DNA of 37,464 bases, taken from a virus (taxonomy: Duplodnaviria > Heunggongvirae > Uroviricota > Caudoviricetes). The notes below the pieces were generated by a model that was not told the DNA's origin, did not search any database, and was given only the letters and a program-made list of their open reading frames with translations. The translations under genes and the position numbers were made by a program. Of this stretch, positions 2,386-22,826 are shown in pieces. Numbering within the stretch: the stretch's first letter is position 1; every line of letters begins with the position of its first letter. The stretch is taken from the IMG/VR virus record IMGVR_UViG_2541047680_000009, positions 1 through 37,464 of that record; one strand, 5' to 3'.

Positions 2386-2463
2386 TTACATTATAAATTC
2401 AGTCTTTTCACAACATTGCGCCGTTGCGTGATGGGACTTCTTCAACTTAAAATGGTGAATATA

Positions 2464-2736: not shown

Positions 2737-2752
2737 CCTTAATTGAAGCGAG

Positions 2753-4147
2753 GTGGATATGTTTATCCTTGAAACGCTGAATTTTGTTGTTGATATACTT
2801 AAAGTGCCCGCGATACTGGTCGGCTTGATTGCCTTAATTGGTCTGGTTGCCCAGAAAAAATCTTTTTCAGATGTTGTTAAAGGTACAATTAAAACTATTC
2901 TCGGCTTTATTGTACTGGGCGGTGGTGCCACTGTTTTGGTTGGTTCGTTAAATCCTCTTGGGAGTATGTTTGAACATGCCTTTAATATTCAGGGCATCAT
3001 TCCGAATAATGAGGCTATTGTTTCTATTGCGCTGGAAAAATATGGCGCATCGACGGCCCTTATTATGGCATTTGGTATGGTGGCGAATATTATTGTTGCC
3101 CGCTTTACCCGCCTTAAATATATCTTCCTGACCGGACACCACACATTTTACATGGCCTGCATGATTGGTGTGATTCTGACAGTGGCTGGTTTTGAAGGTA
3201 TATCACTGGTCTTTACCGGTTCTCTTATTCTGGGACTTGTGATGGCATTTTTCCCGGCATTAGCACAACGCTATATGAAGCGTATTACGGGGAATGATGA
3301 CATTGCTTTTGGTCACTTTGGCACTCTGGGATATGTACTTTCTGGCTGGATTGGCAGCGTGTGCGGTAAAGGTTCCCGCTCCACCGAAGAGATGAATTTG
3401 CCCAAAAATCTGAGCTTCCTGCGCGACAGTTCCATCTCTATTTCTCTTACGATGATGGTGATTTATCTGATCATGGCGATCAGTGCTGGTCGTGAGTTCG
3501 TTGAAAGCCAGTTCAGTGGTGGTCAAAACTACCTTGTCTACGCCATCATAATGGCCATCACCTTCGCTGCTGGTGTATTTATTATTCTGCAAGGCGTGCG
3601 TTTAATCCTTGCTGAAATAGTTCCGGCATTTACCGGGTTTTCAGAAAAGCTGGTGCCGAATGCCCGTCCGGCCCTCGATTGCCCGGTTGTGTATCCGTAT
3701 GCGCCAAACGCAGTGTTAGTTGGTTTCTTGTTTAGCTTTTTTGGCGGTCTGGTAGGGCTATTTTTGTTGGGACAGATGAAACTGGTGTTGATTCTTCCGG
3801 GTGTCGTTCCTCACTTTTTTACCGGGGCGGCTGCTGGCGTATTTGGTAACGCTACGGGGGGACGTCGTGGCGCAATGATTGGTGCTTTTGCGAATGGCTT
3901 ATTGATTACCTTCCTGCCAGTACTGTTATTGCCGGTTCTTGGGGCGATAGGCTTTGCTAATACGACCTTTTCCGATGCAGATTTTGGTGCTGTCGGCATC
4001 GTCCTCGGAAACCTGGCACGTTATCTCTCACCTTTTGCCATCACCGGACTTGTAGTAGCGCTATTTGTGCTGCTGGTTGCCTGGAACATTTTCGCCAGTA
4101 ACAAAATCGCTGCCAAAGCGCAGAAGAAGAGTGGAGCCAAATCATGA
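2753..4147 (+). CDS. PTS EIIC permease, L-ascorbate (UlaA/SgaT) family
   Basis: 464-aa polytopic membrane protein; conserved blocks GTIKTILGF, LTGHH, IILQGVRL, LDCPVVYPYAPNAV align with UlaA; stop overlaps the next start (ATGA). Confidence 0.9.
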   Translation: MDMFILETLNFVVDILKVPAILVGLIALIGLVAQKKSFSDVVKGTIKTILGFIVLGGGATVLVGSLNPLGSMFEHAFNIQGIIPNNEAIVSIALEKYGASTALIMAFGMVANIIVARFTRLKYIFLTGHHTFYMACMIGVILTVAGFEGISLVFTGSLILGLVMAFFPALAQRYMKRITGNDDIAFGHFGTLGYVLSGWIGSVCGKGSRSTEEMNLPKNLSFLRDSSISISLTMMVIYLIMAISAGREFVESQFSGGQNYLVYAIIMAITFAAGVFIILQGVRLILAEIVPAFTGFSEKLVPNARPALDCPVVYPYAPNAVLVGFLFSFFGGLVGLFLLGQMKLVLILPGVVPHFFTGAAAGVFGNATGGRRGAMIGAFANGLLITFLPVLLLPVLGAIGFANTTFSDADFGAVGIVLGNLARYLSPFAITGLVVALFVLLVAWNIFASNKIAAKAQKKSGAKS

Positions 4148-4974
4148 ATGTTAAAGAATTGACTCAATTTGCACGGGATATACGTATCCAGACGCTTAAA
4201 TCATTAACTCATCTCGGCTTCGGTCATTATGGTGGCAGCATGTCGGTTGTGGAAACGCTGGCAGTGCTTTATGGCGCTGTAATGAAAATTGATCCTGCTG
4301 CTCCCGACTGGCCTGAGCGTGACTATTTTATCCTGTCCAAAGGACATGCCGGACCTGCTCTCTACAGTACTCTGGCGCTGAAAGGCTACTTTCCACTGGA
4401 AGAATTAAGCACCTTAAATCAGAACGGAACCCGCTTACCAAGTCATCCGGATCGGCTAAAAACGTGTGGTGTTGATAGCACCACAGGATCGCTGGGGCAG
4501 GGGATATCCATTGCCGGAGGGATGGCGCTGTCGCATAAACTGGCGGGGCGCAAGAATCGGGTTTTTTGTATTGTCGGCGATGGCGAACTTAATGAAGGCC
4601 AATGTTGGGAAGCTTTCCAGTTTATCGCGCATCATCGTTTGAATAACCTCACTGTGTTTGTGGACTGGAACAAACAGCAGCTTGATGGTCAACTGGATGA
4701 AATTATTAATCCATTTGATTTGGAAGGAAAATTCCGGGCTTTCGGTTTTGATGTCGTGACAGTGAAGGGCGATGATATTGAGGGCTTGTTGAATGTAGTT
4801 AAACCTGTCCTGCCAGCTGAGGCCAGACCGAGAGTGGTCATTCTCGATAGCATTAAAGGGCAGGGGGTGCCGTGTCTCGAGCAACTCAGTAATTCTCATC
4901 ACTTACGCCTCACAGAAGAGATGAAGGGGACGCTAAACGAAACAATTCGCCAACTGGAGGCTATGCATGATTAA
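4144..4974 (+). CDS. Transketolase, N-terminal (TPP-binding) subunit
   Basis: 276 aa; motifs SKGHAGPALY and GSLGQGIS...GDGELNEGQCWEA typical of the thiamine-diphosphate binding half of split transketolases; translationally coupled to flanking genes. Confidence 0.9.
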   Translation: MNVKELTQFARDIRIQTLKSLTHLGFGHYGGSMSVVETLAVLYGAVMKIDPAAPDWPERDYFILSKGHAGPALYSTLALKGYFPLEELSTLNQNGTRLPSHPDRLKTCGVDSTTGSLGQGISIAGGMALSHKLAGRKNRVFCIVGDGELNEGQCWEAFQFIAHHRLNNLTVFVDWNKQQLDGQLDEIINPFDLEGKFRAFGFDVVTVKGDDIEGLLNVVKPVLPAEARPRVVILDSIKGQGVPCLEQLSNSHHLRLTEEMKGTLNETIRQLEAMHD

Positions 4975-5920
4975 TCTCGCACCGGCAGGACAAAAAGACA
5001 GCATTGAAATGCGCAAAGTTTATGCAGATTTTATCGCGCAACAGAGTAAAAACGTCAGTTCTGTCATTGCTCTTGAGGCTGATTTAATGAGTTCCATGGC
5101 AATGGACAGCGTGGCGCAGGATTATCCAGATCACGTCATTAATTGCGGCATTATGGAAGCCAATGTTATCGGCACAGCTGCAGGGCTGGCCTTAACCGGG
5201 CGCAAGCCATTCGTGCATACCTTTACCGCATTTGCCAGTCGTCGCTGTTTTGATCAACTCTTTATGTCGCTTGATTACCAGGGCGCTAACGTCAAAGTTA
5301 TAGCTTCTGATGCGGGTGTTGCTGCTTGCCACAATGGCGGAACACATATGTCATTTGAAGATATGGGAATTGTGCGCGGGCTGGCGCATTCGGTGGTGAT
5401 GGAGATGACAGATGCCGTAATGTTCAGCGATATCTTGCGTCAACTCGTTGCACTGGAAGGATTTTATTGGATTCGTACCATTCGGAAGCAAGCAGCGAGT
5501 ATTTACGCACCAGGTACAACCTTTACAATTGGCAAAGGGCAGGTATTACGTGAAGGTACGGATGTCACCTTAATTGCTAATGGCATTATGGTGGTGGAAG
5601 CCCTGGAGGCCGCACGTCAACTTGAGCTGGCTGGGGTAAGTGTAGCGGTGATTGATATGTTTACGCTCAAACCCGTTGATCGGATGTTAATTAAAAATTA
5701 TGCCGAAAAAACAGGACGGATCGTAACATGTGAAAACCATAGTATTCATAATGGATTAGGTTCAGCGGTTGCTGAAGTGCTTGTAGAAACTTGTCCTGTG
5801 CCCATGCGTCGGGTGGGGGTTAAAGAGCGGTATGGCCAGGTTGGAACTCAGGACTTTTTACAGAGAGAGTACGGGTTAACCGCGCAAGATATTGTGGCGG
5901 CAGCCAGAGAGCTATTGTAA
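4967..5920 (+). CDS. Transketolase, C-terminal (pyrimidine-binding) subunit
   Basis: 317 aa; transketolase pyrimidine-binding and C-terminal domain organisation; start overlaps the N-terminal subunit gene by 8 nt. Confidence 0.9.
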   Translation: MINLAPAGQKDSIEMRKVYADFIAQQSKNVSSVIALEADLMSSMAMDSVAQDYPDHVINCGIMEANVIGTAAGLALTGRKPFVHTFTAFASRRCFDQLFMSLDYQGANVKVIASDAGVAACHNGGTHMSFEDMGIVRGLAHSVVMEMTDAVMFSDILRQLVALEGFYWIRTIRKQAASIYAPGTTFTIGKGQVLREGTDVTLIANGIMVVEALEAARQLELAGVSVAVIDMFTLKPVDRMLIKNYAEKTGRIVTCENHSIHNGLGSAVAEVLVETCPVPMRRVGVKERYGQVGTQDFLQREYGLTAQDIVAAARELL

Positions 5921-6108
5921 TTCATGGAGTTTGTTTACCATTCTGTTTTTCTTAAAAGTGAGTGTCTGTGCGGTCACTAAACTCGGTAATAAAGCAGTTC
6001 ATTGCAGGATAAGAAGCGTTTGGTTGTGTCGTTTTACCGTAAGAACCGACCGCCGTATGTATCCATTAAGCCAGTATTGGTAACGTAGGTGCCCACCTTT
6101 TCAAACTG

Positions 6109-6291
6109 GTGGGCGCCTGTTATGGAGCAAAAACATTATCCGCAGAACCCCGCAGATCATTTTCAAATGAGTTAAACTTCAAATGGTTAAACTGGCTTTG
6201 CAACCAGGAGCCTCTGTTGCCCGTATTGCCCGGGAACACGATATCAATGATAACCTCCTGTTCAAATGGCTCAGACTCTGGCAGAACGTAA
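6109..6291 (+). pseudogene. Relic of an IS3-family transposase OrfA (HTH region), frameshifted and truncated
   Basis: Two overlapping frames give ...RRSFSNE... and ...KLQMVKLALQPGASVARIAREHDINDNLLFKWLRLWQ, resembling the N-terminal HTH of IS2/IS3-type OrfA (such as ...[25 protein letters not shown]); no intact transposase follows. Confidence 0.45.
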
Positions 6292-6375
6292 GGTAAAGGG
6301 AGATGAAAAAGGCAATAGCAGAACTGAGTGACAGTGAAACCATTCTGGCGTACAGGGTTGGATGGTGAAACTGAT

Positions 6376-6407
6376 AAAAAACCCCCTCTGAAATTCTGTC
6401 AGAGGGG
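6376..6407 (-). terminator. Rho-independent terminator (minus strand) with no recognisable upstream gene
   Basis: 9-bp perfect stem CCCCTCTGA/TCAGAGGGG (6383-6407), 7-nt loop, followed on the minus strand by TTTTTT (6381-6376). Confidence 0.45.
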
Positions 6408-6624
6408 CTAGTCAATAAGGGAATAATATTCAACATGAAGATGTCTTCTGGGAATGTTTATATAGCAAATGCTTTCACTCCGGTAATTAATTTCCGTGAT
6501 TAACTGCTTTCGATCAATAAAGGAATTGCAAAAGTGTGATCTTGTTCACGACATCGTGGATAATAATATGCCTGATGTCTGAATCCGGAAACAGTGCTCT
6601 GGCGGGTTTCATGTGAAGTTGACG

Positions 6625-6658
6625 GATAAAAAATCCGCACGACCAGACAGACGTGCGG
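6625..6658 (-). terminator. Rho-independent terminator (minus strand), orphan
   Basis: Stem CCGCACG/CGTGCGG (6635-6641 / 6652-6658), 10-nt loop, followed on the minus strand by ATTTTTTAT. Confidence 0.4.
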
Positions 6659-7146
6659 TTTACGAAATTCGTAACAAGAGGCTTTTCTACGGATCACGTG
6701 GTGCGTGCCACGTGAAATTTTTGTAGCGCAAAATGTGTGATGTGTAAATACAAGGAAGGAAAAAAGTTAAATCGGTGGAAGTCCATACCTGCCACATGTA
6801 CGTCTGCATTCCTCGTTTTGAACAGAATTCTCACCAGACATCGTGAATTTCTCATTCAATCATCAGAGATATTACCCAGGATTTTTATTGTTTTGTGATA
6901 TCAGCAGTGCAGGTATACAGACGTTAAAGTAATCAGGTTTATTATAACCACCTTTACAAAGTTGTATATGTTTATAATTTAATGATTTTAATGCCAGTCG
7001 TTTTCTGCTGCTTAAATTGAGGTCGCATATTATACACAATAATATTCCTGGCATTATTAAATTAATAAGAGAGGATTCTTATCACTGTATTTTTGCTCCG
7101 CACTACCGTTCTGGCTGGTGAAGTAATAATACAGGAGAATAACAGA

Positions 7147-8241
7147 ATGCTTAAAAGACGTGATGCTTTTTTAAAGAAAAGCGCGCTGGCAGTGAGTGTG
7201 GCCCTGCTGCTCTCATCTCAGGCTTTGGCTCATAAAACAATTACTGATTCAACGGCGGGTATTATCTGGATTGATAATGGCACTCAGTCACTTGAAAGTG
7301 CAAGTGTGATTGACAGAAATGGAAATGCTAACGGTGATGGTAGTGTTACTGGAAAAAACTTTGCTGTTGGTTCCGATGCAATAATTTGGGATGCGGATAA
7401 ATCCATGGCAACAGGAAATAAGACAGCTGTTTTTAATGCAGACAACAGTGTCGCTCTGGGGTATGGCTCTCAGGTGAATGGAGAAAGCAATGTACTTTCT
7501 GTAGGGGCCGGTCCTTCAGGATATGGATTTTCAGTTGATGGTGCACCGGAAACCCGCCGGATTATAAATGTTTCAGATGGTGTTAAGGATAGTGATGCGG
7601 CCACAAAAGGACAGATGGACAACGCCATTGCAGGTGCTGTACGGGTGTCGGGGGATGCCCTGCGCGGTGAGATAGGAGCTGTCTACCGTGATGCTGTTTC
7701 TCATACTGACAGTCAGGTCACAGCAGTACGTGATGAACTGAAGGCAGAGGGAGACAGTCTGCGCGGTGAGATAGGCGGTGTATACAGAGATGCCCGTGCT
7801 CATACTGACAGTCAGGTTACAGCAGTACGTGATGAACTCAGCAGGGATATTATTGCAGTCACATCGGCAGCGGTGGCGCAGACGGATGCAGCAATAGCCT
7901 CAAATACAGCAGCGATAAGGAATAACAGTCATCGTCTGGATTTGACGGAAGCCTGGCAGAAGATGGCGACAGAGAGAATGAATAATATGCAGGAGCAGAT
8001 TAAAGAGAACCGGAAGGAGTTAAGGGAGAGTGCAGCCCAGAGCGCGGCACTGGCCGGTCTTTTCCAGCCATACAGTGTTGGAAAATTTAACGCGACAGCA
8101 GCCGTTGGTGGTTACCGTGATGAGCAGGCCATTGCGGTGGGCGTGGGCTACCGTTTCAGAGAGAATGTGGCAGGAAAAGTTGCAGTTGCTGCAGGTGGGT
8201 CATCCGCATCGTGGAATGCTGGTGTGAATTTTGAGTTCTGA
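7147..8241 (+). CDS. Trimeric autotransporter adhesin, YadA/Eib-like (signal peptide, coiled-coil stalk, C-terminal beta-barrel anchor)
   Basis: AGGAG RBS 8 nt upstream of the ATG at 7147; signal peptide [28 protein letters not shown]; central heptad-rich repeats; C-terminal anchor ending ...AVGVGYRF...GVNFEF as in YadA-family translocator domains. AT-rich upstream region. Confidence 0.8.
7651..7848 (+). repeat. In-frame tandem duplication, 2 x 99 bp (33-aa coiled-coil unit) inside the adhesin gene
   Basis: Copy 1 at 7651-7749 and copy 2 at 7750-7848 are roughly 80% identical; they encode [33 protein letters not shown] and [33 protein letters not shown]. Confidence 0.85.
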
Positions 8242-8264
8242 CAGGTCAGGATTTAGATATCTGT

Positions 8265-8283
8265 CCCGGGGGGAGTCCCCCGG
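8265..8283 (+). terminator. GC-rich perfect palindrome just after the adhesin stop (possible terminator or protein-binding site)
   Basis: CCCGGGGGAgTCCCCCGGG, 24 nt downstream of the adhesin stop codon; no strong T-tract, so terminator function is uncertain. Confidence 0.35.
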
Positions 8284-8302
8284 GATATAATGAGGTACAG
8301 AG

Positions 8303-8758
8303 ATGCTGGATATAATCCTGGCGACGAGAGATATTTATTTTGAAAAAGCCCTGCGAGAGGTATTTGGAACCGTAAGCAGTCGAATCAGATATATAGAAGA
8401 TGCCATATCAGACAGAAGAAGGGTGCAGTCAGGCAGGTCATTCAGATATTATTTTGTATTCTGTGATGATGAGTATACAGATATTGTTCGTATTCTTTTT
8501 ACCGGAGAGGCCTGCTGTATTCTGAATAAGTCGATGCTGAATCTGAGAGCGGCCGGAGGTGTGTTGACGCTGGAAGAGCGCAGAGCGGTACTGAACCGGT
8601 ATTACAGAGGTTTAAGTATTGCGGAGATTACAGAAGAGACGGGGCAGAATGACAAGACGGTATACGGTCATCTTCGTCGTGCACTGCAGCGGTCTGGATT
8701 CCGGAAGGGGCGTTTTATAAAGGGGAGAGAAGTGACGGGGGATTCAGGTGTTGAATAA
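8303..8758 (+). CDS. Small LuxR/GerE-type HTH transcriptional regulator
   Basis: 151 aa; C-terminal LTLEERRAVLNRYYRGLSIAEITEETGQNDKTVYGHLRRALQR fits the LuxR-type HTH pattern (LT.RE..VL......G.S..EIA.....S..TV..H); GAGG RBS 8 nt upstream. Confidence 0.6.
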   Translation: MLDIILATRDIYFEKALREVFGTVSSRIRYIEDAISDRRRVQSGRSFRYYFVFCDDEYTDIVRILFTGEACCILNKSMLNLRAAGGVLTLEERRAVLNRYYRGLSIAEITEETGQNDKTVYGHLRRALQRSGFRKGRFIKGREVTGDSGVE

Positions 8759-9114
8759 TGTATCTTATATTGTGATATCGGTGCTGCTGCTGTTATTTTT
8801 TGTTGTATTTGTGACGAATGGTTAAGAATAAAACATGAGTTGGTGATTATCAGGACAGGTTGCTTGTATATGAAGATAACAAAGGCGGCATTTATTTTTG
8901 CGCTGTCAGTGTGGAGTGTTGCTGTGATATGTCTTTTATTATTTGTACTGATTGTTCTGGGATAGCCATAGTGAAATAAAAAGCTGTCTGAATTAAATTA
9001 TTTTGCACACATGTTTTAATTCTGCACTGAATTCAGAATGGGTAATCAGTGACCGTCCTGACGGTCACTTTAAAGAAAAGGCATTTACACAGAATTACTG
9101 ACAGGCTCTGGCTG

Positions 9115-9453
9115 TCATTCGGCCGATGAACAGTTGCTTAAGACAGGATTATCATTCCCTTCCACCAGATTGGCTTTTTTACCTTTTGTGTACAGTTTAT
9201 ATGAGTATCTTTTATTGATGGCTTCGTAATTGGCTCCGGAGGCCATTTTCATTAGCTGCATAGGTATCATCTCATCCATCTGATTAATCACTGCATATGA
9301 GTTCCCAGCAGTGGTGTTGATATAGACCACCTCCATTGTCTTATTTCCATTACAGACATAAGCTGTTTTTGAGATTTCTTTTGTGGCAGCGGAGGATACC
9401 ATACTGTTGCTAACAAGAATGAGTGCAAGGACGGGAGAAGAGTATTTTTTCAT
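9115..9453 (-). CDS. MliC/PliC-family inhibitor of C-type lysozyme (secreted)
   Basis: 112 aa with N-terminal signal peptide; conserved MliC-like pattern Y.C...........V.Y.......A....................SGA.Y.......Y.....KG..A............C (YVCNGNK...VVYINT...MASGANYEA...YTKGKKANL...SNC); AAGGAG RBS 7 nt upstream. Confidence 0.6.
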   Translation of the reverse strand: MKKYSSPVLALILVSNSMVSSAATKEISKTAYVCNGNKTMEVVYINTTAGNSYAVINQMDEMIPMQLMKMASGANYEAINKRYSYKLYTKGKKANLVEGNDNPVLSNCSSAE

Positions 9454-9958
9454 AATAACTCCTTCTGTAGGTTAAAAAAACAGGTGTTTGATCAGAATTA
9501 TATTAATAATTCATTCATCAGAAAAAAAGGTTTTTGTTATAGCAATAATAATGAGCACAATTGCTTGTGAAACTGGTGCCATTTTACGGTTGCTTAGTGA
9601 TCAGACATGAGATAAATGAAGGGGGATCCGTGAGATAAATAACGAATTGGAGTGGGTTAACATGGGTTCTGGTGAACAGAACTGAAATTCTTTTCCGCTA
9701 TACGATAGATAAGTCGGGCATTGAAATCATCCTTCCTGGCAACTTAGAATCGAGTTTGCTGAAACATGACCCGCAACAAAAAGGATGATTCCAATGACTA
9801 CTCAAAACAATAAGCATGATAGCCTGGATTACTCAGAAAAGCCCAAAAGCAAGCACATCGTGACGTTCGAGCGCGATTCCGGTAGAAAAGGAGAATCGTC
9901 TTCCTCTGCCAATAAAACCACTATGCCGGCAGCCCCTGCCCCAGGGAAAAAATAAACA

Positions 9959-11104: not shown

Positions 11105-11528
11105 GTTTGACTCCCGCAGCTCTGCGCTGCCACTTCTTCAGTTTCTCAATAACACTGCTTGCCTGTTCAGTACTGAGCCAGCGCAGGGCGCTGATGCCCG
11201 TTTCCCGCTTGATCCACCGCGCTAATGCATTTTCTGAACGGTCACGAACAATGCCGGCAGCAGCCATTTCAAGCCATAGCGCACGGATTTTCCTGGACTG
11301 CGGATGGTTATCCAGCGGTAAACCGGAGCTGGCTTTTCCGGCAGGCTTAACGCGAAAGCCTTTCCTTTTCATGGATTCCAGCACGCAGTTTAGTTGTGTG
11401 GTATCCATTCCTTTGGTTGAGGCTTTACCGGTCAGCCCCTGTAACATCTGGCGGTAGGTGTCTTCATCCATACCCAGTTCATTACGGGCAATATGAATGA
11501 GCTGGATAAGACGTTGTTTAGTCATCAT
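11076..11528 (-). CDS. gemA: GemA-family protein (Mu gp16-like)
   Basis: AAGGAG RBS 6 nt upstream of the ATG at 11528; MMTKQRLIQLIHIARNELGMDEDTYRQMLQ...AGKASS... resembles the GemA (DUF1018) family; sits directly upstream of mor as in Mu. Confidence 0.75.
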   Translation of the reverse strand: MMTKQRLIQLIHIARNELGMDEDTYRQMLQGLTGKASTKGMDTTQLNCVLESMKRKGFRVKPAGKASSGLPLDNHPQSRKIRALWLEMAAAGIVRDRSENALARWIKRETGISALRWLSTEQASSVIEKLKKWQRRAAGVKHERPESVSK

Positions 11529-11733
11529 CGTTGCTCCTTTTACCTGCGCCACCGATATAATCGACATATAAAGGAAGCGCCACAGGCCAGCACAGGAACA
11601 TCACCGACCAGCTAATCCAGTAGCCAGCACCACTGTAACGTGAATAAAACCCTGAACGGCGGTGCAGTTCAGCAGTACACCAACCGACAAAACAATACCA
11701 GAACAGGGCACATACAACAGATTCAGCCGTCAT
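11518..11733 (-). CDS. Small hydrophobic protein (71 aa), unknown function
   Basis: ATG at 11733 with a G-rich RBS; two predicted TM segments (VVCALFWYCFVGWC, WISWSVMFLCWPVALPL); overlaps neighbours by 11 nt on both sides. The ORF track extends the frame to 11889, but that start would overlap the previous gene. Confidence 0.4.
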   Translation of the reverse strand: MTAESVVCALFWYCFVGWCTAELHRRSGFYSRYSGAGYWISWSVMFLCWPVALPLYVDYIGGAGKRSNDDD

Positions 11734-11953
11734 TCTGAATATCCCCCCAACTGATATGAATATTACGGGCAGCAATGACAGGGTCGTTATTCCACCATGC
11801 ACCTGACATGTATTTTTCAACCTGTTCGCGTCCGGCAATAACACCAATTGTGATCCCCGGCCTGACGTTCTTAAAAAAGGCGCGGGCAAAAAGGTATCTG
11901 GCAGATATTCGGCAGGCTTTTAATTTCCGGCTTTTACCTGATAGCGTAATCAT
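11723..11953 (-). CDS. Hypothetical protein (76 aa)
   Basis: Start ATG overlaps the stop of the upstream gene (ATGA), indicating translational coupling. Confidence 0.4.
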   Translation of the reverse strand: MITLSGKSRKLKACRISARYLFARAFFKNVRPGITIGVIAGREQVEKYMSGAWWNNDPVIAARNIHISWGDIQNDG

Positions 11954-12633
11954 CTGGCCTCCAGTTTCTGTTGTTCCTGCCCACTGACCGGGCGGTGCAG
12001 TCTGACGTTCTGCCCTTCAAGAAACCCCGCATAGCGCGAGGCGTCGCCATTGCGGCTTCTTCCCGGTTTACGCGCCCTGGTGGTTTGCGTCTGCGGGTAT
12101 TTATGTTCCAGCCACTGCTGCATCAGTTCACGTTCGTCATCGGTCAGGGCGAAGGACTGTATTTCACTGATAACGGCCAGCACCCAGCCTTCAGCAAACT
12201 GGTCACCACGGCTGGTACGGGTGGCAGTTTTTATTCTTTTGTTCTGTGCGCTGATATATTGCTGACGCGCCTTTTTCAGCTGGCGGGCCAGCACTTCCCA
12301 GGTGTACGCAGCCAGTGCAGCCCGTTCCCGGTTGCCGTAGAACCCCACACCCGGATATGTGCCGGGGTGAATGATGGAGTTAACACCAAATGCCTCACGG
12401 ATGATGTTCATCAGGCCCAGCATGTAGCGCGGTGGACGGAGGCTGCCTGTCGGCCAGTAGTGACTGATGGTTTCATCAATATCACTCATGGCGATGTCGG
12501 AATGTGTGATGCCGTGAACATCCATCAGTTTACGGGCACGGCGCAGTGCCAGAGCGGCCTCGTGAGGGTTGCCGGATGCGGCCAGCGCCAGCAACTTTTT
12601 CAGTTTCTCAATGTGTTTATCCTGGTCTGTCAT
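11950..12633 (-). CDS. DUF2786-like phage protein (227 aa)
   Basis: N-terminal IEKLKKLLALAASGNPHEAALALRRARKLMDVHGI matches the conserved DUF2786 signature (KI.KLLALA.S.N..EA..AL..A..LM); ATGA overlap with the upstream gene. Confidence 0.55.
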   Translation of the reverse strand: MTDQDKHIEKLKKLLALAASGNPHEAALALRRARKLMDVHGITHSDIAMSDIDETISHYWPTGSLRPPRYMLGLMNIIREAFGVNSIIHPGTYPGVGFYGNRERAALAAYTWEVLARQLKKARQQYISAQNKRIKTATRTSRGDQFAEGWVLAVISEIQSFALTDDERELMQQWLEHKYPQTQTTRARKPGRSRNGDASRYAGFLEGQNVRLHRPVSGQEQQKLEAR

Positions 12634-12935
12634 TGTTCAGTATCTCCGGTGTACATGACGCCCAGCCGTGCGGCAAGGCGTTCCAGTTTTTTCTGTTTGT
12701 GGAAGTCAATCAGCCGGTCCATTCCCTGAAGGCGCAGCTGCTCTGTCATGATTTCCACGTCTGCCAGCTCTGCCGCGAGGTCACTTTCGCTGCCCTGTCC
12801 GTTCAGGTTGCGGGCGGCACTGGCCGCCAGTTCAGCGGCCTCTTCTGTCAGTTTCAGGGCCTGTGCGTCCGGCCCGAAACGCTGCAGGGCCAGACGGTAG
12901 AGGGCGGTGCGGGTGAGTTCGGTGTTCCGTGTCAT
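12630..12935 (-). CDS. MazG-like nucleotide pyrophosphohydrolase domain protein (101 aa)
   Basis: LTEEAAELAASA...(about 16 aa)...AAELADVEIMTEQL fits the paired EExxE / ExxD(V) helices of MazG-type NTP-PPases found in phages; assignment from motif only. Confidence 0.45.
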   Translation of the reverse strand: MTRNTELTRTALYRLALQRFGPDAQALKLTEEAAELAASAARNLNGQGSESDLAAELADVEIMTEQLRLQGMDRLIDFHKQKKLERLAARLGVMYTGDTEQ

Positions 12936-18567: not shown

Positions 18568-18756
18568 TCAGGCTGCCTGAGCTGTTGATTTCAGCCCCAA
18601 CTTCACGGCGATTTCATGGGATTTACCGTAACGGGCTTTGGTCTGCCCATTGAGAACGCGGTATACCTCATTGCGGTTGTAGCCGTTTTCTTCTGCCCAG
18701 CGGGTGAAAGTGATCCCGCGCTGGCGGAAGAGAGCTTTGACTTGTTCTGCAGTCAT
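18568..18756 (-). CDS. Ner-like small DNA-binding regulator (first gene of the early operon)
   Basis: 62 aa; AAGGAG RBS 6 nt upstream; alignable with Mu Ner over the conserved core (V..A.L..R..S.....A...GY.....L...L.......G..IIA.AL); divergent from the repressor gene. Confidence 0.6.
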   Translation of the reverse strand: MTAEQVKALFRQRGITFTRWAEENGYNRNEVYRVLNGQTKARYGKSHEIAVKLGLKSTAQAA

Positions 18757-18856
18757 CGTTGTCTCCTTTGTTGATGCAATGATGTTTGCCTTATGTGTGA
18801 TAGATTATGGTGCAGATTACCTCACCAGTCAACTTAAAGAGTGCAGAAAAACTCAC
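18757..18856. promoter_or_regulatory. Divergent promoter/operator region between the repressor and the early (ner-like) operon
   Basis: 100-bp AT-rich intergenic region between the divergent starts; contains repeated AGATTA elements (gatAGATTAtggtgcAGATTAcc). Confidence 0.5.
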
Positions 18857-19195
18857 ATGATCGGGTTACGTATTAAAGAAGAAAGAGAGCGTCTATCTCT
18901 TACACAGCAAGGGTTGGCTGATGCTATAGGTGTGGCAAAGAGAACTTTCATTGATTGGGAAAAAGATCGCACTTCTCCTACTGCAGTGCAGTTATCTGCA
19001 CTATCAGAAATCGGTGTAGATATTTTGTATGTAGTTACTGGGGTGCGGAGTCAGCCTGTTGTTGCACCTTATGTGTCACAAGAAAAGAAAGAGTTAATGG
19101 ATGCATTCGACGAAATGAGCCCCGAACAACGGAGGGCAATTCTTGAGGTCGGCAAAGTCTTCATTCAACCCAAACCAAGCAAACTCGCAGGCTGA
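18857..19195 (+). CDS. Prophage repressor, XRE-family HTH (c repressor analogue)
   Basis: MIGLRIKEERERLSLTQQGLADAIGVAKRTFIDWEKDRTSP is a canonical XRE/Cro-C1 HTH; divergent from the early operon as for Mu c. The ORF track's longer N-terminal extension (from 18704) would overlap the ner-like gene and is rejected. Confidence 0.75.
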   Translation: MIGLRIKEERERLSLTQQGLADAIGVAKRTFIDWEKDRTSPTAVQLSALSEIGVDILYVVTGVRSQPVVAPYVSQEKKELMDAFDEMSPEQRRAILEVGKVFIQPKPSKLAG

Positions 19196-19280
19196 TTTTG
19201 ACCTGGACACAAAGGACAGGTGGTTGATCTGGATGCTTTCAGAAAACATCGCCAGTGACATAGTGGAAGTTGTTTGGTTT

Positions 19281-19313
19281 ACCGGAAAGCATTGTGCTTT
19301 CCGGTTTTGTTTC
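19281..19313 (+). terminator. Rho-independent terminator after the repressor gene (shared with the convergent Dam gene)
   Basis: 10-bp stem ACCGGAAAGC/GCTTTCCGGT with 5-nt loop followed by TTTTGTTTC. Confidence 0.65.
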
Positions 19314-20076
19314 AGAAGTTGCAGATTACCAGTTCACGGCGCGGCGTAGATTTCCCCGCCAGACTGTAGTTGATGTTCACTGTCTGTATGTTCAGTCCAG
19401 TGAACACCTCGCGCATCTGTGGGATATCGTTCACCGAAATTATCATTTTTCCTCTGATGCACCGGGCCAGCTCTGCCAGCCGCGAGTAGTTCCCTTCAGG
19501 AAAATCCACACCATAGCCTTCCGTACCCAGGTACGGTGGGTCGCAGTAGAACAGTGTGTGCGGACGATCATAACGCTCAATGCACTGTTGCCAGTCCATG
19601 TGTTCTATGACTGTTCTGGAAAGCCGCAGGTGTGCTGCTGACAGTTCTTCTTCAATACGCAGCAGGTTGAAGCGTGGCGGGGATGTGGTGGAGGTACCGA
19701 AGCTGTGCTCTGCCACCTTGCCGCCAAACGCCTGCTTCTGAAGGTAGTAGAACCGTGCCGCACGCTGGATATCCGTCAGTGTTTCTTCCGGGGTGATCTG
19801 CAGCCATTTGTAGATCTGACGGCTGACCAGCGCCCATTTGAACTGGCGGACAAATTCTTCCAGGTGATGCTTTACCACCCGGTACAGATTCACCAGTTCA
19901 CCGTTGATATCATTGATGACTTCGATCTTGCCGGGTGTCTTAAGAAAATAGAGCGCTGCTGCCCCACAAAACGGCTCCACATAACATTCATGCGCCGGAA
20001 ACAGCGGCAGGATGTGTTTTGCCAGGCGACGTTTGCCACCAATCCATGGAACGATGGGTAATGTCTTCATTTTCAT
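19312..20076 (-). CDS. DNA adenine methyltransferase, Dam family (D12 class N6-MTase), orphan
   Basis: Motifs WIGGKRRL (N-terminal), EPFCGAAA (AdoMet binding) and DPPY (catalytic) in the order typical of Dam; no adjacent restriction endonuclease. Alternative start at 20070. Confidence 0.85.
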   Translation of the reverse strand: MKMKTLPIVPWIGGKRRLAKHILPLFPAHECYVEPFCGAAALYFLKTPGKIEVINDINGELVNLYRVVKHHLEEFVRQFKWALVSRQIYKWLQITPEETLTDIQRAARFYYLQKQAFGGKVAEHSFGTSTTSPPRFNLLRIEEELSAAHLRLSRTVIEHMDWQQCIERYDRPHTLFYCDPPYLGTEGYGVDFPEGNYSRLAELARCIRGKMIISVNDIPQMREVFTGLNIQTVNINYSLAGKSTPRRELVICNF

Positions 20077-20117
20077 AATCTGTAAGCCTTTTACAATTAT
20101 TAAAAATATGGCAGGCT

Positions 20118-20211
20118 AGTCTGGTCTCGCGAGACTGACTGAACCTCGGTCGGCTCACAGCCACTTCTGTGGGACGATGGCCAGCCCGGTGGGTCCGAAG
20201 CACCGGGCTGG
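20118..20211. other. Structured intergenic region upstream of the Dam gene: perfect 12-bp palindrome GTCTCGCGAGAC (20124-20135) and an 11-bp-stem hairpin (20181-20211)
   Basis: Hairpin CCAGCCCGGTG-ggtccgaag-CACCGGGCTGG with perfect 11-bp stem; palindrome flanked by AGTC/GACT. Lies in the 191-nt gap between the 71-aa gene and the Dam gene. Confidence 0.5.
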
Positions 20212-20267
20212 TCGTTCTTTCATGATGCGGCAGGGATAGTGGGATTTCTGTTAATGTGGTTTAGGGA

Positions 20268-20483
20268 TTATCCGGGGCGATTTTCTGACCTTATCCGGTC
20301 CAGGGCATAAGTAATACCTTCTGCAAAAACAGAAGTATCAAACTGCTTTTGTATTCCCTGAAAATGAAAAGCGGCACGACAGACACTCAGTTCTCCGCGA
20401 TGTAACCGGATAATATCTTCCAGAACATTGTTCACTGCTTCAGCACGGCGCTGATGTTCTGTTAACGTTAATCGGGGATTCAT
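20268..20483 (-). CDS. Hypothetical protein (71 aa), part of the accessory module
   Basis: Strong RBS TAAGGAG 6 nt upstream of the ATG at 20483; no recognisable family (possibly small DNA-binding). Confidence 0.5.
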   Translation of the reverse strand: MNPRLTLTEHQRRAEAVNNVLEDIIRLHRGELSVCRAAFHFQGIQKQFDTSVFAEGITYALDRIRSENRPG

Positions 20484-20886
20484 GATGCACTCCTTAAATG
20501 ATGATTTTTATGCACTCACCGGCAAAATATTCTGCCGATTACTGAACACGCATCCGGCACCTCAGGTTTTGATTTATTCTGGTTTTTTCGATATCCCGGA
20601 CCAGGTTGATCACGACCAGAAAAAGTGCCGGTATTTTATTGATACGCTGATATGGCTTCGGGATAACAGCTATATTCGTTACTCTCAGTTGCTGGCTGTG
20701 GGAGCGGCTGATGTCGTCCTCACGGAAAAAACGCTCCGTCTGCTCAATGCCACGCCGACCCTTCTGCAGCCCCGGCCCGCACCATTTAAAGAGTCACTTC
20801 TGGATGCAGTAAAAACCGGTGAAAATGCAGTCATCGCTGAATGCGTATCCCGGATTATGCGTTACGTGTTTAATGAACGTAAGTGA
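20482..20886 (+). CDS. Hypothetical protein (134 aa), part of the accessory module; reality of this ORF uncertain
   Basis: 405-nt ORF filling the gap between two minus-strand genes; its ATG lies back to back with the 71-aa gene's ATG (2-nt overlap on opposite strands) and its 3' end overlaps the 247-aa gene by 25 nt; only a weak RBS (GGGGA). Confidence 0.35.
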   Translation: MMHSLNDDFYALTGKIFCRLLNTHPAPQVLIYSGFFDIPDQVDHDQKKCRYFIDTLIWLRDNSYIRYSQLLAVGAADVVLTEKTLRLLNATPTLLQPRPAPFKESLLDAVKTGENAVIAECVSRIMRYVFNERK

Positions 20887-21605
20887 GGTTTATCCGCTGT
20901 CTGCATAATCCCGATAGCCAGTGCGAGGGGAAGTAATTCCGGGGAAACTCTTTCAAACAGCGACTCCCATTCTCCTCTCGCCATCACTCTGTCCAGCCCG
21001 CCCCCCAGTTGCATTTCAGCAATCTTCCTGATTTCCCGGAACAACGCCGCTTTGATCTCTTCGTGCTCAGCTTTATTTTCCGGTGTCAGAATGTATTCGT
21101 CGAAGAACCGGGGAGGCTGGTTAACGGGGAGCGTGTTCACCGGGATGTGTTCCTGTTTCCCGTACTTCGGGGCAGAAAAACATTCTGTTGGCTGACCGGT
21201 GAGTTTACGTAGCTCCTTCATGAGCAGCTCCTGATCGTAAACTGTCATCAGTGCCGCAATGGTGGCATGCAGTGCATCGGGCAGTATCCAGGGTTGCCGG
21301 CCCGTGGGGCATATAACATCCAGCAGCTCATTCGTCCGACAGATACGCTCCTCGCCGTATGACAACAGGCCCTGTCCCGTGTATTCCTCCAGCCTGATCA
21401 CTGTGCCACCCCGTGGCTTCTGCCAGGTCGTCAGATCATCGCCACTCATACGCCGCTCATCATCTACGTCTGCAGCATCGACAATGACGCTGCCCCCGAA
21501 TTCCTGTTTCACCACTTCCTCTATCCGCGCCAATATGTAACTTTTACCGCTGCCCACAGGACCGGACACGGTGACAGTGATGACCGGATTCAGTGTCTGC
21601 GTCAT
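20862..21605 (-). CDS. P-loop NTPase of unknown function (247 aa)
   Basis: Walker A GPVGSGKS at residues 15-22 followed by a hydrophobic strand ending in acidic residues (VIVDAADVDDE, Walker B-like); about 150-aa C-terminal domain with no motif I recognise; GAGGAG RBS 7 nt upstream; divergent from the late operon. Confidence 0.6.
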   Translation of the reverse strand: MTQTLNPVITVTVSGPVGSGKSYILARIEEVVKQEFGGSVIVDAADVDDERRMSGDDLTTWQKPRGGTVIRLEEYTGQGLLSYGEERICRTNELLDVICPTGRQPWILPDALHATIAALMTVYDQELLMKELRKLTGQPTECFSAPKYGKQEHIPVNTLPVNQPPRFFDEYILTPENKAEHEEIKAALFREIRKIAEMQLGGGLDRVMARGEWESLFERVSPELLPLALAIGIMQTADKPHLRSLNT

Positions 21606-21709
21606 ATCGTATTCTCCTCTGTGAATAATTCATCGTTTATCCTGCACATCCCGTATCCCCGGCTCTCTTAACGCGCTTTAAAATCCTTCGCGCCCTGTAT
21701 TTGTGATGC

Positions 21710-21732
21710 TGTCTCCACCAGACAAGGAGACA
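21710..21732 (+). promoter_or_regulatory. Hairpin sequestering the Shine-Dalgarno of the first late (holin) gene
   Basis: TGTCTCC (21710-21716) pairs perfectly with GGAGACA (21726-21732), loop 9 nt; the GGAG of the RBS is inside the 3' stem, 4 nt upstream of the ATG at 21736. Confidence 0.4.
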
Positions 21733-21735
21733 CAC

Positions 21736-22086
21736 ATGAAAAACCTGAAAAAATTCATTCCCCCTGTTAAAAAACCTCGCCTCAGCGGCTGGCTGCTGAC
21801 CTCAGTGCTGTTGCTGGGCACCATCGCTCTGGTCTCGCCACAGCAGTTGCCTGTTGTGATCTACAAGCTGGCACTCATCACGCTGGCAGCAGTGCTGGGT
21901 TACTGGCTTGACCGTTCGCTCTTCCCCAAAGCCCGTCCCGGTCAGTACCTGAAACATGACGACAGGCTGATGGCTGATGGGCGTTTCCCGGTACAGACCG
22001 GCCTTCACCTGGTGTTTTCTGCTGCGTTAATCCGCCGTGCACTGATTGTTGCAGCGGTCTGTCTGGCTGTTGCGATGGGGCTTTAA
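21736..22086 (+). CDS. Putative holin (3 TM helices)
   Basis: 116 aa from the ATG with AAGGAG RBS; three hydrophobic helices; immediately precedes the endolysin gene. Confidence 0.5.
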   Translation: MKNLKKFIPPVKKPRLSGWLLTSVLLLGTIALVSPQQLPVVIYKLALITLAAVLGYWLDRSLFPKARPGQYLKHDDRLMADGRFPVQTGLHLVFSAALIRRALIVAAVCLAVAMGL

Positions 22087-22088
22087 TC

Positions 22089-22826
22089 ATGAACTGGCCG
22101 CAGATCACCTGGATTGTATGCATGTCCCTGAAACTGGCTTTCGAAGCCTTTAGGGTCTTCATCAGAACCGAACGCCTGTCAGTCCGCGCCGGGACCTTTC
22201 TGGTTCATATGGCACGGGTATTCTTTGTCGCAATGTTGCTCTGGTGTGGCGGCTTCTTCAGTCAGGCCCGCGCAGCGCAGCCTCCGCAGGCAGCGCTGCA
22301 GTATCGCGATGATGTGATCCGTAATGCCCGGCTTGAATGGGGACTGTCTGCGCCGGTGGCTGATTTCGCTGCGCAACTGCATCAGGAAAGCGGCTGGCGA
22401 CCTGATGCGATCTCGCCGGTTGGCGCTCAGGGACTGGCGCAGTTCATGCCCGCCACCGCCGACTGGATAAGTCAGTTGATGCCGGGGCTTAACAGCCGTG
22501 AGCCATTTAATCCGGCATGGGCCATCCGGGCGCTGGTCAGCTATGACCGCTGGCTGTGGCAGCGCGTCAGCGCCGCCAGTGACTGCGAGCGTATGGCCAT
22601 GACACTGTCGGGCTATAACGGTGGTCTGGGCTGGGTACAGCGGGACAGGCGGCTTGCATCACAAAAAGGGCTGGACAGCACCCGCTGGTTTGGTCATGTC
22701 GCCACGGTGAATGCCGGACGCAGCACTGCCAGCTGGCGGGAGAACCGTCATTATCCCCAGCGCATCCTGTTCACGCTGGCCCCGCGTTATCTCTCATGGG
22801 GAGGGGCAAGCTGTGTGGGTACGTAA
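22089..22826 (+). CDS. Endolysin, lytic transglycosylase (SLT domain), probably with N-terminal signal-anchor (SAR-like)
   Basis: Family-1 lytic transglycosylase catalytic motif LHQESGWRPDAISPVGAQGLAQFMP; hydrophobic N-terminal segment MARVFFVAMLLWCGGFF; alternative in-frame start at 22209. Confidence 0.8.
   Translation: MNWPQITWIVCMSLKLAFEAFRVFIRTERLSVRAGTFLVHMARVFFVAMLLWCGGFFSQARAAQPPQAALQYRDDVIRNARLEWGLSAPVADFAAQLHQESGWRPDAISPVGAQGLAQFMPATADWISQLMPGLNSREPFNPAWAIRALVSYDRWLWQRVSAASDCERMAMTLSGYNGGLGWVQRDRRLASQKGLDSTRWFGHVATVNAGRSTASWRENRHYPQRILFTLAPRYLSWGGASCVGT

What the first reader, a model, noticed from the sequence alone, without database searches (positions are those of the whole stretch)
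20268..21605. Three-gene accessory module (P-loop NTPase plus two small unknown proteins) between the prophage repressor/Dam and the lysis genes
Seen in sequence: a 247-aa ORF with an N-terminal Walker A (GPVGSGKS) and strong RBS, a 134-aa ORF on the opposite strand that overlaps its 3' end by 25 nt, and a 71-aa ORF with a TAAGGAG RBS whose start codon lies back to back with the 134-aa start. None resembles any Mu-family replication, lysis or morphogenesis gene I can recognise, and they are transcribed opposite to the late operon, towards the repressor. Inference: a moron-like insertion placed where prophages commonly carry lysogen-expressed cargo (superinfection exclusion, anti-phage defence, toxin-antitoxin). 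The back-to-back start codons mean either one small ORF is spurious or the locus has unusual overlapping transcription.
Basis: partly seen in the sequence, partly recalled or inferred. Interest (0 to 1): 0.75.

Follow-up and report, generated by a model that had tools for sequence, protein, structure and literature searches.

The report
Prophage accessory cassette with head-to-head genes
The three genes are real and sit in a variable cargo slot of a BcepMu-like E. coli prophage, but the "NTPase" is only a 75-residue P-loop mini-domain and the conserved core is a winged-helix regulator gene wedged antisense between two small-protein genes; this cassette also occurs in the defence hotspot of P2-like phages, and its function is still unknown.

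Summary
Observation confirmed. All three ORFs exist at the stated coordinates with the stated overlaps, and each hits a PHROG family of unknown function (E 4e-164, 6e-44, 2e-52).

The window is a BcepMu-like transposable prophage. The repressor-to-holin interval is variable across relatives, so "accessory slot" holds.

- **247-aa protein.** It is a chimera: a ~75-aa β-(Walker A)-α-β-β mini-domain, a middle module, and a C-terminal module (C', residues ~181-247). C' is a stand-alone 89-aa gene in Serratia. It is not a full NTPase.
- **Start junction.** In every locus examined, BcepMu-like and P2-like, this gene starts head-to-head at a CATG with a 60-73-aa ORF. Each Shine-Dalgarno sequence lies inside the other gene. 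Both small ORFs are therefore real and transcription must overlap.
- **P2-like phages.** There the pair lies in the gpA-gpQ defence hotspot.

No PADLOC, Pfam or PDB match identifies a function. The 134-aa gene is repeatedly lost in nature while its neighbours stay intact, which argues against an antitoxin role.

Best reading: a self-regulated accessory cassette of small binding proteins. A defence role is unproven.

The parts
20862..21605 (-). Gene C, 247 aa. A chimeric mosaic protein: mini-P-loop domain, middle module, linker and C' module.
   Evidence: ORF and RBS. phrog_3787 E 3.8e-164. Variants of 242, 182, 158 and 141 aa show the module boundaries. pN/pS 0.25.
21372..21605 (-). Residues 1-78 of C: beta1-GPVGSGKS-alpha1-beta2-...ER...W..P...-beta3 mini-domain. 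It is the only widely conserved part.
   Evidence: Exhaustive HMMER gave 55 hits that share only query residues ~1-75, at the N-terminus of proteins of 73-364 aa or as stand-alone proteins. A profile against PDB matches only the Walker A/alpha1/beta2 stretch of ABC ATPases and kinases, E >= 1.6e-4.
20862..21065 (-). C' module (residues ~181-247 of C plus the stop codon), homologous to the stand-alone 89-aa gene of Serratia BcepMu-like prophages.
   Evidence: 48% identity over 54 aa, E 2e-12. Present only where A is present in all loci mapped. Lowest pN/pS, 0.15.
20482..20886 (+). Gene B, 134 aa: winged-helix domain plus two C-terminal helices. Probable DNA-binding regulator, encoded antisense between C and A.
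20268..20483 (-). Gene A, 71 aa: small protein partner of B, fold not modelled here.
   Evidence: phrog_4490 E 1.6e-52. Serratia homolog of 73 aa, 30% identity, E 6e-11, in the same position. TAAGGAG RBS.
20481..20484 (.). CATG head-to-head junction. The start codons of A (CAT on the + strand) and B (ATG) share 2 nt, and each gene's SD lies in the first codons of the other.
   Evidence: Seen in the window, in Serratia BcepMu-like loci, and in P2-like loci of E. coli/Shigella, Salmonella, Klebsiella, Citrobacter, Scandinavium and Serratia.
20862..20886 (.). 25-nt convergent overlap of the 3' ends of B and C.
   Evidence: The Serratia equivalent overlaps by 37 nt. No terminator-like site was predicted between the two genes.
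20181..20211 (.). Perfect 11-bp inverted repeat (CCAGCCCGGTG N9 CACCGGGCTGG) between the A stop codon and the Dam start codon, followed by a T-rich tract on the + strand.
   Evidence: A similar GCCCGGTG...CACCGGGC hairpin with a T-run lies at the same place in Serratia, L004 5737-5770.
21606..21735 (.). 130-nt divergent intergenic region between C and the holin. It must hold the C promoter and the late/lysis promoter.
   Evidence: Sequence. The mini-P-loop gene is the divergent neighbour of the holin in all 23 IMG/VR loci that carry both. No sigma-70 consensus hit here.

Best explanation
The locus is non-core cargo of a BcepMu-like transposable prophage and has two layers. Layer 1 is a gene that sits next to the holin in most enterobacterial relatives. 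It always begins with a ~75-residue P-loop mini-domain and has a shuffled, hypervariable 3' part. Layer 2 is a mobile cassette of three small genes, C' (about 70-89 aa), B (134-139 aa) and A (71-73 aa). In E. coli, C' has been fused in frame to the layer-1 gene, giving the 247-aa protein.

Shown: B is a winged-helix protein. Its gene exactly fills the gap between C and A on the opposite strand, overlapping C tail-to-tail by 25 nt and A head-to-head at a CATG.

Inferred mechanism: C and A are transcribed as one leftward unit (C, then the antisense of B, then A, possibly continuing into Dam). B is transcribed rightward from within or beyond A. The two RNAs are then complementary across both ribosome-binding sites and both start codons, so the two directions exclude each other through transcriptional interference and duplex formation. 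B protein binds operator DNA in the cassette and sets the balance. The outputs are small non-enzymatic proteins (A, and C' with the phosphate-binding mini-domain) that act by binding a host or phage target. That would make the cassette a lysogenic-conversion function, most plausibly exclusion or defence against other phages, or counter-defence. The identity of the target is not known.
For: Variable slot: different genes lie between the repressor and the holin in BcepMu (gp18-20), KP12 (DUF2441), L019 (DUF7424), L022, L023, L037-43 and Serratia.

Prevalence in complete E. coli genomes: holin+SLT backbone at 705 places; any part of the module at 641; A at 529; B at 520.

Chimera: the Serratia 89-aa protein matches only residues 182-233 of C. 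The 141-aa variant ends right after the middle module, which is also the C-terminal end of P0110, P0112 and P0133. C' is present only where A is present.

B is real and winged-helix.

The CATG junction with embedded SDs is found in every B locus examined, across two unrelated phage lineages.

Deletion variants L031, L032 and L061 remove B codons 19-134 exactly. This leaves C and A as a compact pair 54 nt apart with A's SD intact, as expected if C and A form one transcription unit.

B homologs lie in the P2 gpA-gpQ hotspot (location defined in PMC9122126) beside a reverse transcriptase, an AAA_15/21 ATPase pair or a YobI-type ATPase.
Against: No transcript data are available. Sigma-70 consensus scans find no convincing or conserved promoter at the junction or upstream of C.

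DNA binding by B is inferred from the fold only, and winged-helix domains also mediate protein contacts (kleisin and cullin hits).

The P2-type small partner is not detectably homologous to A (hhalign probability 0.1%), so the shared architecture might be convergent.

No PADLOC, Pfam, NCBIfam or PDB hit gives a function.

pN/pS of A (0.51) and B (0.39) shows only moderate constraint on a small sample.

B is lost in several natural copies, so the proposed switch is dispensable.

The structure model of C failed (pLDDT 43).
Confidence: 0.4

Rival explanations
1. A three-gene anti-phage defence or abortive-infection system in which the 247-aa P-loop NTPase is the sensor or effector and the two small proteins are accessory.
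For: The slot is variable. B homologs sit in the P2 gpA-gpQ defence hotspot next to RT, AAA_15/21 and YobI-type genes. The Walker A G and K are invariant across the mini-domain family. The locus is common in E. coli, in 584 of 5426 genomes.
Against: No significant PADLOC hit; the best is mad8 at E 0.0046 over a P-loop stretch. The P-loop part is only ~75 residues, with no conserved Walker B, and some relatives have a degenerate Walker A such as GAESSGKN. The Serratia cassette has no P-loop part at all. P2-like copies have only the A'-B pair. None of the proteins has a recognisable nuclease, protease, pore or other effector domain.
Confidence: 0.2
2. A toxin-antitoxin module. The winged-helix protein B would be the DNA-binding antitoxin, and A or C the toxin. 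Alternatively an RNA-level type I/III-like pair would arise from the antisense overlap.
For: Small genes in a mobile-element cargo locus. The 5' ends are fully complementary, as in some type I systems (established knowledge of tisB/istR and zor/orz). B has a DNA-binding-type fold.
Against: The genes are divergent and convergent, not a co-directional bicistron. B is deleted (L031, L032, L061), truncated by a stop codon (L036) or frameshifted (L065) while A and C stay intact and 87-100% identical to the window's. A is soluble-looking, not a hydrophobic type I toxin peptide (sequence). No toxin or antitoxin family hits.
Confidence: 0.08
3. A phage-intrinsic regulatory module that tunes the lysis-lysogeny decision or late/lysis expression, for example an anti-repressor with its controller, rather than cargo acting on other phages.
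For: It lies directly between the immunity repressor/Dam and the late lysis promoter. In P2-like phages the pair lies near the DinI-domain gene, which in phage 186 corresponds to the Tum antirepressor region (own knowledge). The components are a DNA-binding-type protein plus small proteins. Face-to-face transcription is how the P2/186 switch is wired (established knowledge).
Against: The cassette is absent from many otherwise syntenic relatives, which keep the same repressor, Ner and holin genes (L037-43, KP12, BcepMu). About a quarter of E. coli copies lack A and B. The immunity region varies independently of the cassette (Rep identities of 33-99% with an identical cassette).
Confidence: 0.2
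4. Decaying, non-functional remnants. One or more ORFs would be annotation artefacts kept only by linkage.
For: C occurs as truncated and internally deleted variants. B is repeatedly inactivated. pN/pS of A is only 0.51.
Against: Length, order and overlaps are conserved between E. coli and Serratia at 30-53% protein identity. The B family is conserved at ~30% identity into P2-like phages and gives a confident fold. All three ORFs are intact in 7 of 8 haplotypes.
Confidence: 0.04

Closest known systems
Accessory (moron / hotspot) loci of temperate phages, in particular the gpA-gpQ defence hotspot of P2-like phages (Rousset et al. 2022, PMC9122126)
   Same: The position is fixed between conserved backbone genes and the content changes between close relatives. 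Homologs of gene B, with their small partner, lie inside the P2 hotspot.
   Different: The window's slot is in a BcepMu-like transposable phage, between the repressor/Dam and the holin. None of its genes matches a validated defence system. The sequences were not found in that paper's supplementary tables.
Face-to-face promoter switches of P2 and 186 (Pc/Pe, pL/pR) and other convergent-transcription toggles
   Same: Two oppositely oriented genes whose transcripts must overlap at their 5' ends. One product is a small DNA-binding-type protein (inference).
   Different: Here the two start codons themselves overlap (CATG) and each SD lies inside the other coding sequence. No sequence similarity to C, Cox, CI or Apl was found by family scans. 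Promoters are not identified.
P-loop NTPases (ABC-type ATPases, nucleotide kinases)
   Same: A beta-strand, the Walker A motif GxxGxGK[ST], helix alpha-1 and the following strand resemble the start of ABC nucleotide-binding domains.
   Different: The conserved unit ends after ~75 residues. There is no conserved Walker B aspartate, Q-loop, signature motif or lid. Some members have a degenerate Walker A. The best PDB matches include designed minimal P-loop proteins 9jix and 6c2u.
Small winged-helix regulators of phages and defence islands (MarR, Rrf2, PadR, YjcQ/DUF2513-like proteins)
   Different: No Pfam model, DUF2513 included, is matched by any of 40 family members. It has a distinct two-helix C-terminal extension and the obligatory head-to-head small partner.

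Membership tests
P-loop NTPase | Walker A motif GxxxxGK[ST] after a beta-strand | tested here: met
   GPVGSGKS at residues 15-22. G20 and K21 are invariant in 19 diverse relatives.
P-loop NTPase | Walker B (hhhhD/E) and a complete alpha/beta core of five or more strands | tested here: not met
   Conservation stops at residue ~75. The aspartate after beta-2 is not conserved. Profile hits to PDB cover only positions ~10-48. Stand-alone members are 68-90 aa. The AF2 model was too poor to add anything.
P-loop NTPase | Nucleotide binding or hydrolysis | not testable with these tools
   Needs purified protein.
Known anti-phage defence systems (PADLOC-DB v2.0.0) | Significant HMM match of at least one component to a catalogued system | tested here: not met
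   The best hit is mad8, E 0.0046, over the P-loop stretch. Nothing for A or B. Nothing for alternative cargo in the same slot. Systems described after 2023 were not tested.
Type II toxin-antitoxin module | Co-directional two-gene operon | tested here: not met
   A and B are divergent; B and C are convergent.
Type II toxin-antitoxin module | The antitoxin cannot be lost while the toxin stays intact | tested here: not met
   B is deleted, nonsense-mutated or frameshifted in L031, L032, L061, L036 and L065, with A and C intact.
Winged-helix DNA-binding regulators | Winged-helix fold | tested here: met
Winged-helix DNA-binding regulators | Membership of a named family (MarR, PadR, Rrf2, DUF2513, YjcQ) | tested here: not met
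   No Pfam hit for 40 members at E <= 5, except weak RecJ_C. P0031 has no DUF2513 hit.
Winged-helix DNA-binding regulators | Sequence-specific DNA binding | not testable with these tools
   Candidate inverted repeats near the junction were read by eye from the sequence: 20440-20454, also listed, and about 20520-20540. They are not validated.
Prophage moron / accessory cargo | Present or absent, or replaced, among otherwise syntenic relatives | tested here: met
   In E. coli: backbone 705 places, A 529, B 520.
Prophage moron / accessory cargo | Own promoter and terminator, and expression in the lysogen | tested here: inconclusive
   No consistent sigma-70 promoter. A conserved hairpin lies downstream of A. 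Expression is not testable here.
BcepMu-like (Bcepmuvirus) transposable prophage | Leftward early operon (Ner, IclR-like, gp10-like, rve transposase, ExeA-like B, Gam, GemA, Mor) and rightward lysis and Mu-like head/tail genes | tested here: met
   RefSeq annotation of a near-identical prophage copy (99.4% over window 12649-37464; the module region is 100% identical) and comparison with BcepMu and PhiKM.

The most novel reading that the evidence does not exclude
The winged-helix gene and its head-to-head small partner, with start codons sharing a CATG and each ribosome-binding site inside the other gene, form a previously undescribed portable toggle. It would combine protein repression with obligatory RNA-RNA exclusion, move between the cargo hotspots of unrelated temperate phages (BcepMu-like and P2-like), and gate expression of the neighbouring variable defence or counter-defence genes, including the mini-P-loop fusion protein here.
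Probability: 0.15. Interest if true: 0.75.

Novelty: new variant of a known kind. Interest (0 to 1): 0.5.

Why it matters
About one in ten complete E. coli genomes, including O25:H4/O25b:H4 strains and an O25b:H4-ST131 isolate, carries part or all of this locus (584 of 5426; the 134-aa gene in 492), yet all three proteins are annotated as hypothetical. This work gives a concrete dissection: which parts are mobile, which are resident, and which are dispensable. It links the locus to the experimentally established P2 defence hotspot. It also identifies a compact gene pair whose architecture forces antisense overlap of both translation start regions. If the pair turns out to be a regulatory switch for hotspot cargo, it would help explain how prophages keep potentially costly cargo silent or conditional. 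It would also provide a marker for finding new cargo. The 75-residue P-loop mini-domain family would be of separate interest as a natural minimal phosphate-binding domain.

Tried and rejected
- **Structure of the 247-aa protein.** AlphaFold2 with the only available alignment (10 sequences, all at least 74% identical) gave pLDDT 43. No fold search was run on it. A deeper alignment from the exhaustive search could not be submitted under the tool's input rule.
- **afdb50 fold search.** Not available on the machine. BFVD and Foldseek-PDB gave only generic winged-helix matches for B.
- **Family scans.** Pfam, NCBIfam and PADLOC scans of the three proteins gave nothing beyond weak P-loop hits. A Pfam scan of all 40 B-family members gave no family.
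- **PDB sequence searches.** Searches with C, and with the B, A, A' and mini-domain profiles, were uninformative except for the Walker A stretch.
- **Homology between the two small-partner families.** The BcepMu-type A and the P2-type A' are not detectably related (hhalign probability 0.1%).
- **Genes converging on B in P2-like loci.** BLASTP of the convergent neighbours tested (Salmonella 120/128 aa, Serratia 66 aa, the RT and the HTH protein) and of the co-directional Klebsiella 316-aa gene against C' found no similarity.
- **RNA families.** Rfam scan of 19000-22200 gave only sub-threshold snoRNA noise.
- **Promoters.** Consensus scans and my own weighted scan found no convincing conserved sigma-70 promoter at the junction.
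- **Literature.** Searches by accession, by N-terminal peptide, for 'BcepMu-like', 'DUF2513' and 'PhiKM', and in the Rousset 2022 supplements, found no description of these proteins.
- **Third lineage.** Looking for mosaic proteins that carry C' (P0116, P0119) gave no usable locus in IMG/VR. The metagenome scan returned only E. coli-type copies.
- **Rejected idea.** That B is an antisense-ORF artefact of a C-A intergenic spacer. It is ruled out by the 85-cluster family, the 53%-identical and 30%-identical homologs, and the confident fold.
Full report
**1. Observation**

The three ORFs are exactly as described.
- C is 247 aa at 20862..21605 (-). It has GPVGSGKS at residues 15-22 and GAGGAG 8 nt upstream of the start.
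- B is 134 aa at 20482..20886 (+). It overlaps the 3' end of C by 25 nt.
- A is 71 aa at 20268..20483 (-), behind TAAGGAG.
- The A start codon (CAT on the + strand, 20481-20483) and the first B ATG (20482-20484) share two bases. Both genes therefore start at one CATG.

Each protein matches a PHROG family of unknown function: phrog_3787 at E 3.8e-164, phrog_2266 at E 6.1e-44 and phrog_4490 at E 1.6e-52. RefSeq annotates all three as hypothetical proteins.

**2. Context**

The window is a BcepMu-like transposable prophage.
- The module region is 100% identical to E. coli SK1144 and many other strains, among them O25:H4 and O25:NM isolates. It is 95% identical to phage PhiKM, genus Bcepmuvirus.
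- Early genes run leftward: Ner, IclR-like, a gp10-like gene, rve transposase, an ExeA-like gene, Gam, GemA and Mor. Lysis and Mu-like morphogenesis genes run rightward from the holin at 21736.
- Homology to the SK1144 prophage starts at window position 9598, and the host flank differs from that strain's ssuB site. This is expected for a transposing phage.

**3. The slot is variable**

The interval between the immunity repressor and the holin holds different genes in different relatives.

| Phage or locus | Content of the slot |
|---|---|
| BcepMu | gp18 (membrane protein), gp19, gp20 |
| Klebsiella phage KP12 | two hypothetical genes, Dam and a DUF2441 gene |
| L019 | a 314-aa mini-P-loop protein and a DUF7424 gene |
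| L037-42 | a 158-aa C variant plus two membrane proteins |
| L043 | a 141-aa C variant, a Zn-ribbon protein, Dam and two more genes |

None of this alternative cargo matches PADLOC or an informative Pfam family.

Counts in complete E. coli genomes:

| Feature | Genomes | Places |
|---|---|---|
| Holin+SLT backbone | 636 | 705 |
| Any part of the module | 584 | 641 |
| Gene A | 499 | 529 |
| Core of gene B | 492 | 520 |

About three quarters of copies therefore carry A and B, and about 91% carry at least the 5' part of C.

**4. Gene C is a chimera, not a full NTPase**

- The word-indexed search found only 19 clusters. All those that carry an organism name are from E. coli, and identity to the window protein is 65% or more. 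They include internally deleted (182 aa) and truncated (141 and 158 aa) forms.
- The exhaustive HMMER search found 55 relatives, but they share only residues ~1-75.
- This unit is beta1-GxxGxGKS-alpha1-beta2-...ER...W..P...-beta3. It occurs at the N-terminus of proteins of 73-364 aa with shuffled downstream modules, and also as stand-alone proteins of 68-90 aa.
- A profile of the unit matches PDB sequences only over the Walker A/alpha1/beta2 stretch of ABC ATPases and kinases (E >= 1.6e-4). The hits include designed minimal P-loop proteins.
- No Walker B is conserved, and some members have GAESSGKN in place of the Walker A.
- The middle module (PWxLPDAxHAxxAAL..YDQxL..ELRK) is the C-terminal end of the 141-aa variant and of P0110, P0112 and P0133.
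- Residues 182-233 match the stand-alone 89-aa gene of Serratia BcepMu-like prophages (48% identity, E 2e-12). I call this module C'.
- The 247-aa protein is therefore best read as an in-frame fusion of a resident mini-P-loop gene with C'. The fusion itself is an inference.
- AlphaFold2 on the shallow alignment failed (pLDDT 43).

**5. Gene B is real and is a winged-helix protein**

- A 53%-identical homolog occupies the same position in Serratia.
- Homologs at about 30% identity occur in P2-like phages Midge, FSL SP-004 and ST147-VIM1phi7.1.
- A profile search gave 85 clusters; every cluster that carries an organism name is from Enterobacterales.
- AlphaFold2 with 40 sequences gave pLDDT 81 and pTM 0.77.
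- No Pfam model matches any of 40 members.

**6. The conserved architecture**

- In Serratia the slot reads 73 aa (-), 139 aa (+), 89 aa (-). The tail-to-tail overlap is 37 nt. The 73-aa protein is 30% identical to A (E 6e-11).
- In every locus with a B homolog that I examined, a 60-73-aa ORF starts head-to-head at a CATG. This holds even where gene callers missed it.
- The loci examined are the window, Serratia, and P2-like prophages of E. coli/Shigella, Salmonella, Klebsiella, Citrobacter, Scandinavium and Serratia.
- The SD of B (GGGA) lies in the first codons of the small gene. The SD of the small gene (AAGGAG, GAGG or GGAGG) lies in codons 2-6 of B.
- The P2-type partner (DLSSREV motif) is not detectably homologous to A (hhalign probability 0.1%).
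- C' is present in exactly those loci that have A.
Neither small ORF is spurious, and both mRNAs must extend into the other gene.

**7. P2-like context**

There the pair lies between portal gpQ and replication gene gpA. Rousset et al. defined that interval as a defence hotspot (PMC9122126). Neighbours found in that interval:
- a reverse transcriptase plus an HTH protein converging on B;
- an AAA_15/21 ATPase with a partner, or a 1326-aa YobI-type ATPase;
- two small genes of 120 and 128 aa;
- a co-directional 316-aa gene.

In phage Midge the pair is accompanied only by a 90-aa ORF. I found no mention of these proteins in that paper's supplements or elsewhere in the library.

**8. Selection and loss**

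- Among 8 distinct E. coli haplotypes, pN/pS is 0.25 for C (0.15 for C'), 0.39 for B and 0.51 for A.
- B is deleted from codon 19 to codon 134 in L031, L032 and L061. It has a stop at codon 41 in L036 and is frameshifted in L065. A and C stay intact in all of these.
- The deletion leaves C and A 54 nt apart with A's SD intact.
- Two loci (L034, L064) carry an extra B paralog between A and Dam.

**9. Mechanism: what is shown and what is inferred**

Shown: the gene order, the overlaps, the winged-helix fold of B, the chimeric build of C, the variability of the slot, and the association with the P2 hotspot.

Inferred:
- C and A form one leftward transcription unit that reads through the antisense of B.
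- B is transcribed rightward from within or beyond A.
- The complementary 5' regions, which cover both SDs and both start codons, together with the convergent 3' overlap, make the two directions mutually exclusive.
- B protein binds DNA in the cassette.
- A and C (or C') are small binding proteins that carry out the cassette's function.

Promoter scans do not support or refute this. A conserved GC-rich hairpin lies between A and Dam in both E. coli and Serratia.

**10. Verdict**

It is accessory cargo with overlapping transcription. It is not a bona fide NTPase-centred three-gene insertion, and there is no direct evidence for defence.
- A TA role for B is disfavoured.
- The cassette is uncharacterised and architecturally unusual. 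It is a new variant within the known class of prophage hotspot cargo.
- Interest is moderate. It is common in clinical E. coli, easy to test, and linked to a validated defence hotspot, but its function is still open.

Noticed in passing
window 1-9597: The left third of the window is host DNA: a LacI-family regulator, PTS EIIA and EIIC-GAT, a split transketolase, a YadA-anchor adhesin, a sigma-70 region-4 protein and an MliC-like lipoprotein. Homology to the SK1144 prophage begins at 9598. SK1144 carries the same prophage inside ssuB, so the two copies sit at different chromosomal sites, as expected for transposition.
   Followed up: partly
window 20181-20211; L004 5737-5770: A GC-rich hairpin (GCCCGGTG...CACCGGGC) followed by a T-run on the + strand lies between the A stop codon and the Dam start codon. 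It is conserved between E. coli and Serratia. Its strand of action is unclear: terminator for rightward transcripts, or 3'-end structure of the A transcript.
   Followed up: partly
window 20219-20269 versus 20457-20488: The 10-mer TTCATGATGC, which is the A/B start junction, recurs exactly 260 nt upstream in the A-Dam spacer. A 24-nt stretch next to the junction recurs there at 75% identity. This could be a relic of an earlier junction or cassette boundary, or it could be chance.
   Followed up: no
L034 6588-7052 (-); L064 5044-5400 (-): Some E. coli copies carry a second, divergent B paralog (28% identity to B) inserted between A and Dam. It has no partner ORF of 55 aa or more listed at its start.
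   Followed up: partly
window 18704-19195 and relatives L025-L036: The immunity repressor is mosaic among prophages whose cargo cassette is nearly identical. Repressor identity ranges from 33% to 99%, often with a conserved N-terminal 35 residues. Immunity types are therefore swapped independently of the cassette.
   Followed up: no
window 11519-11692 and 11692-12650: Compared with the SK1144 prophage, a stretch of about 170 nt in the early region is replaced, and the next ~960 nt are only 95.6% identical. The rest is 98-99% identical. This is a local recombination patch among small early genes.
   Followed up: no
L002 (OM835952.1, Klebsiella phage KP12 clone KP12_2): This record is filed under Vequintavirinae, but the clone is a BcepMu-like genome with transposase, Mu-like portal and the same holin/SLT genes. 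It is probably a co-purified or induced prophage rather than part of a Vequintavirinae genome.
   Followed up: no
L048 2340-2546; L044-L047: Stand-alone versions (about 68 aa) or short versions of the P-loop mini-domain occur in GC-rich viral contigs that have no detectable hit to the window's holin, SLT or other backbone reference proteins. The mini-domain family (phrog_3787) is therefore much broader than the BcepMu-like lineage.
   Followed up: partly
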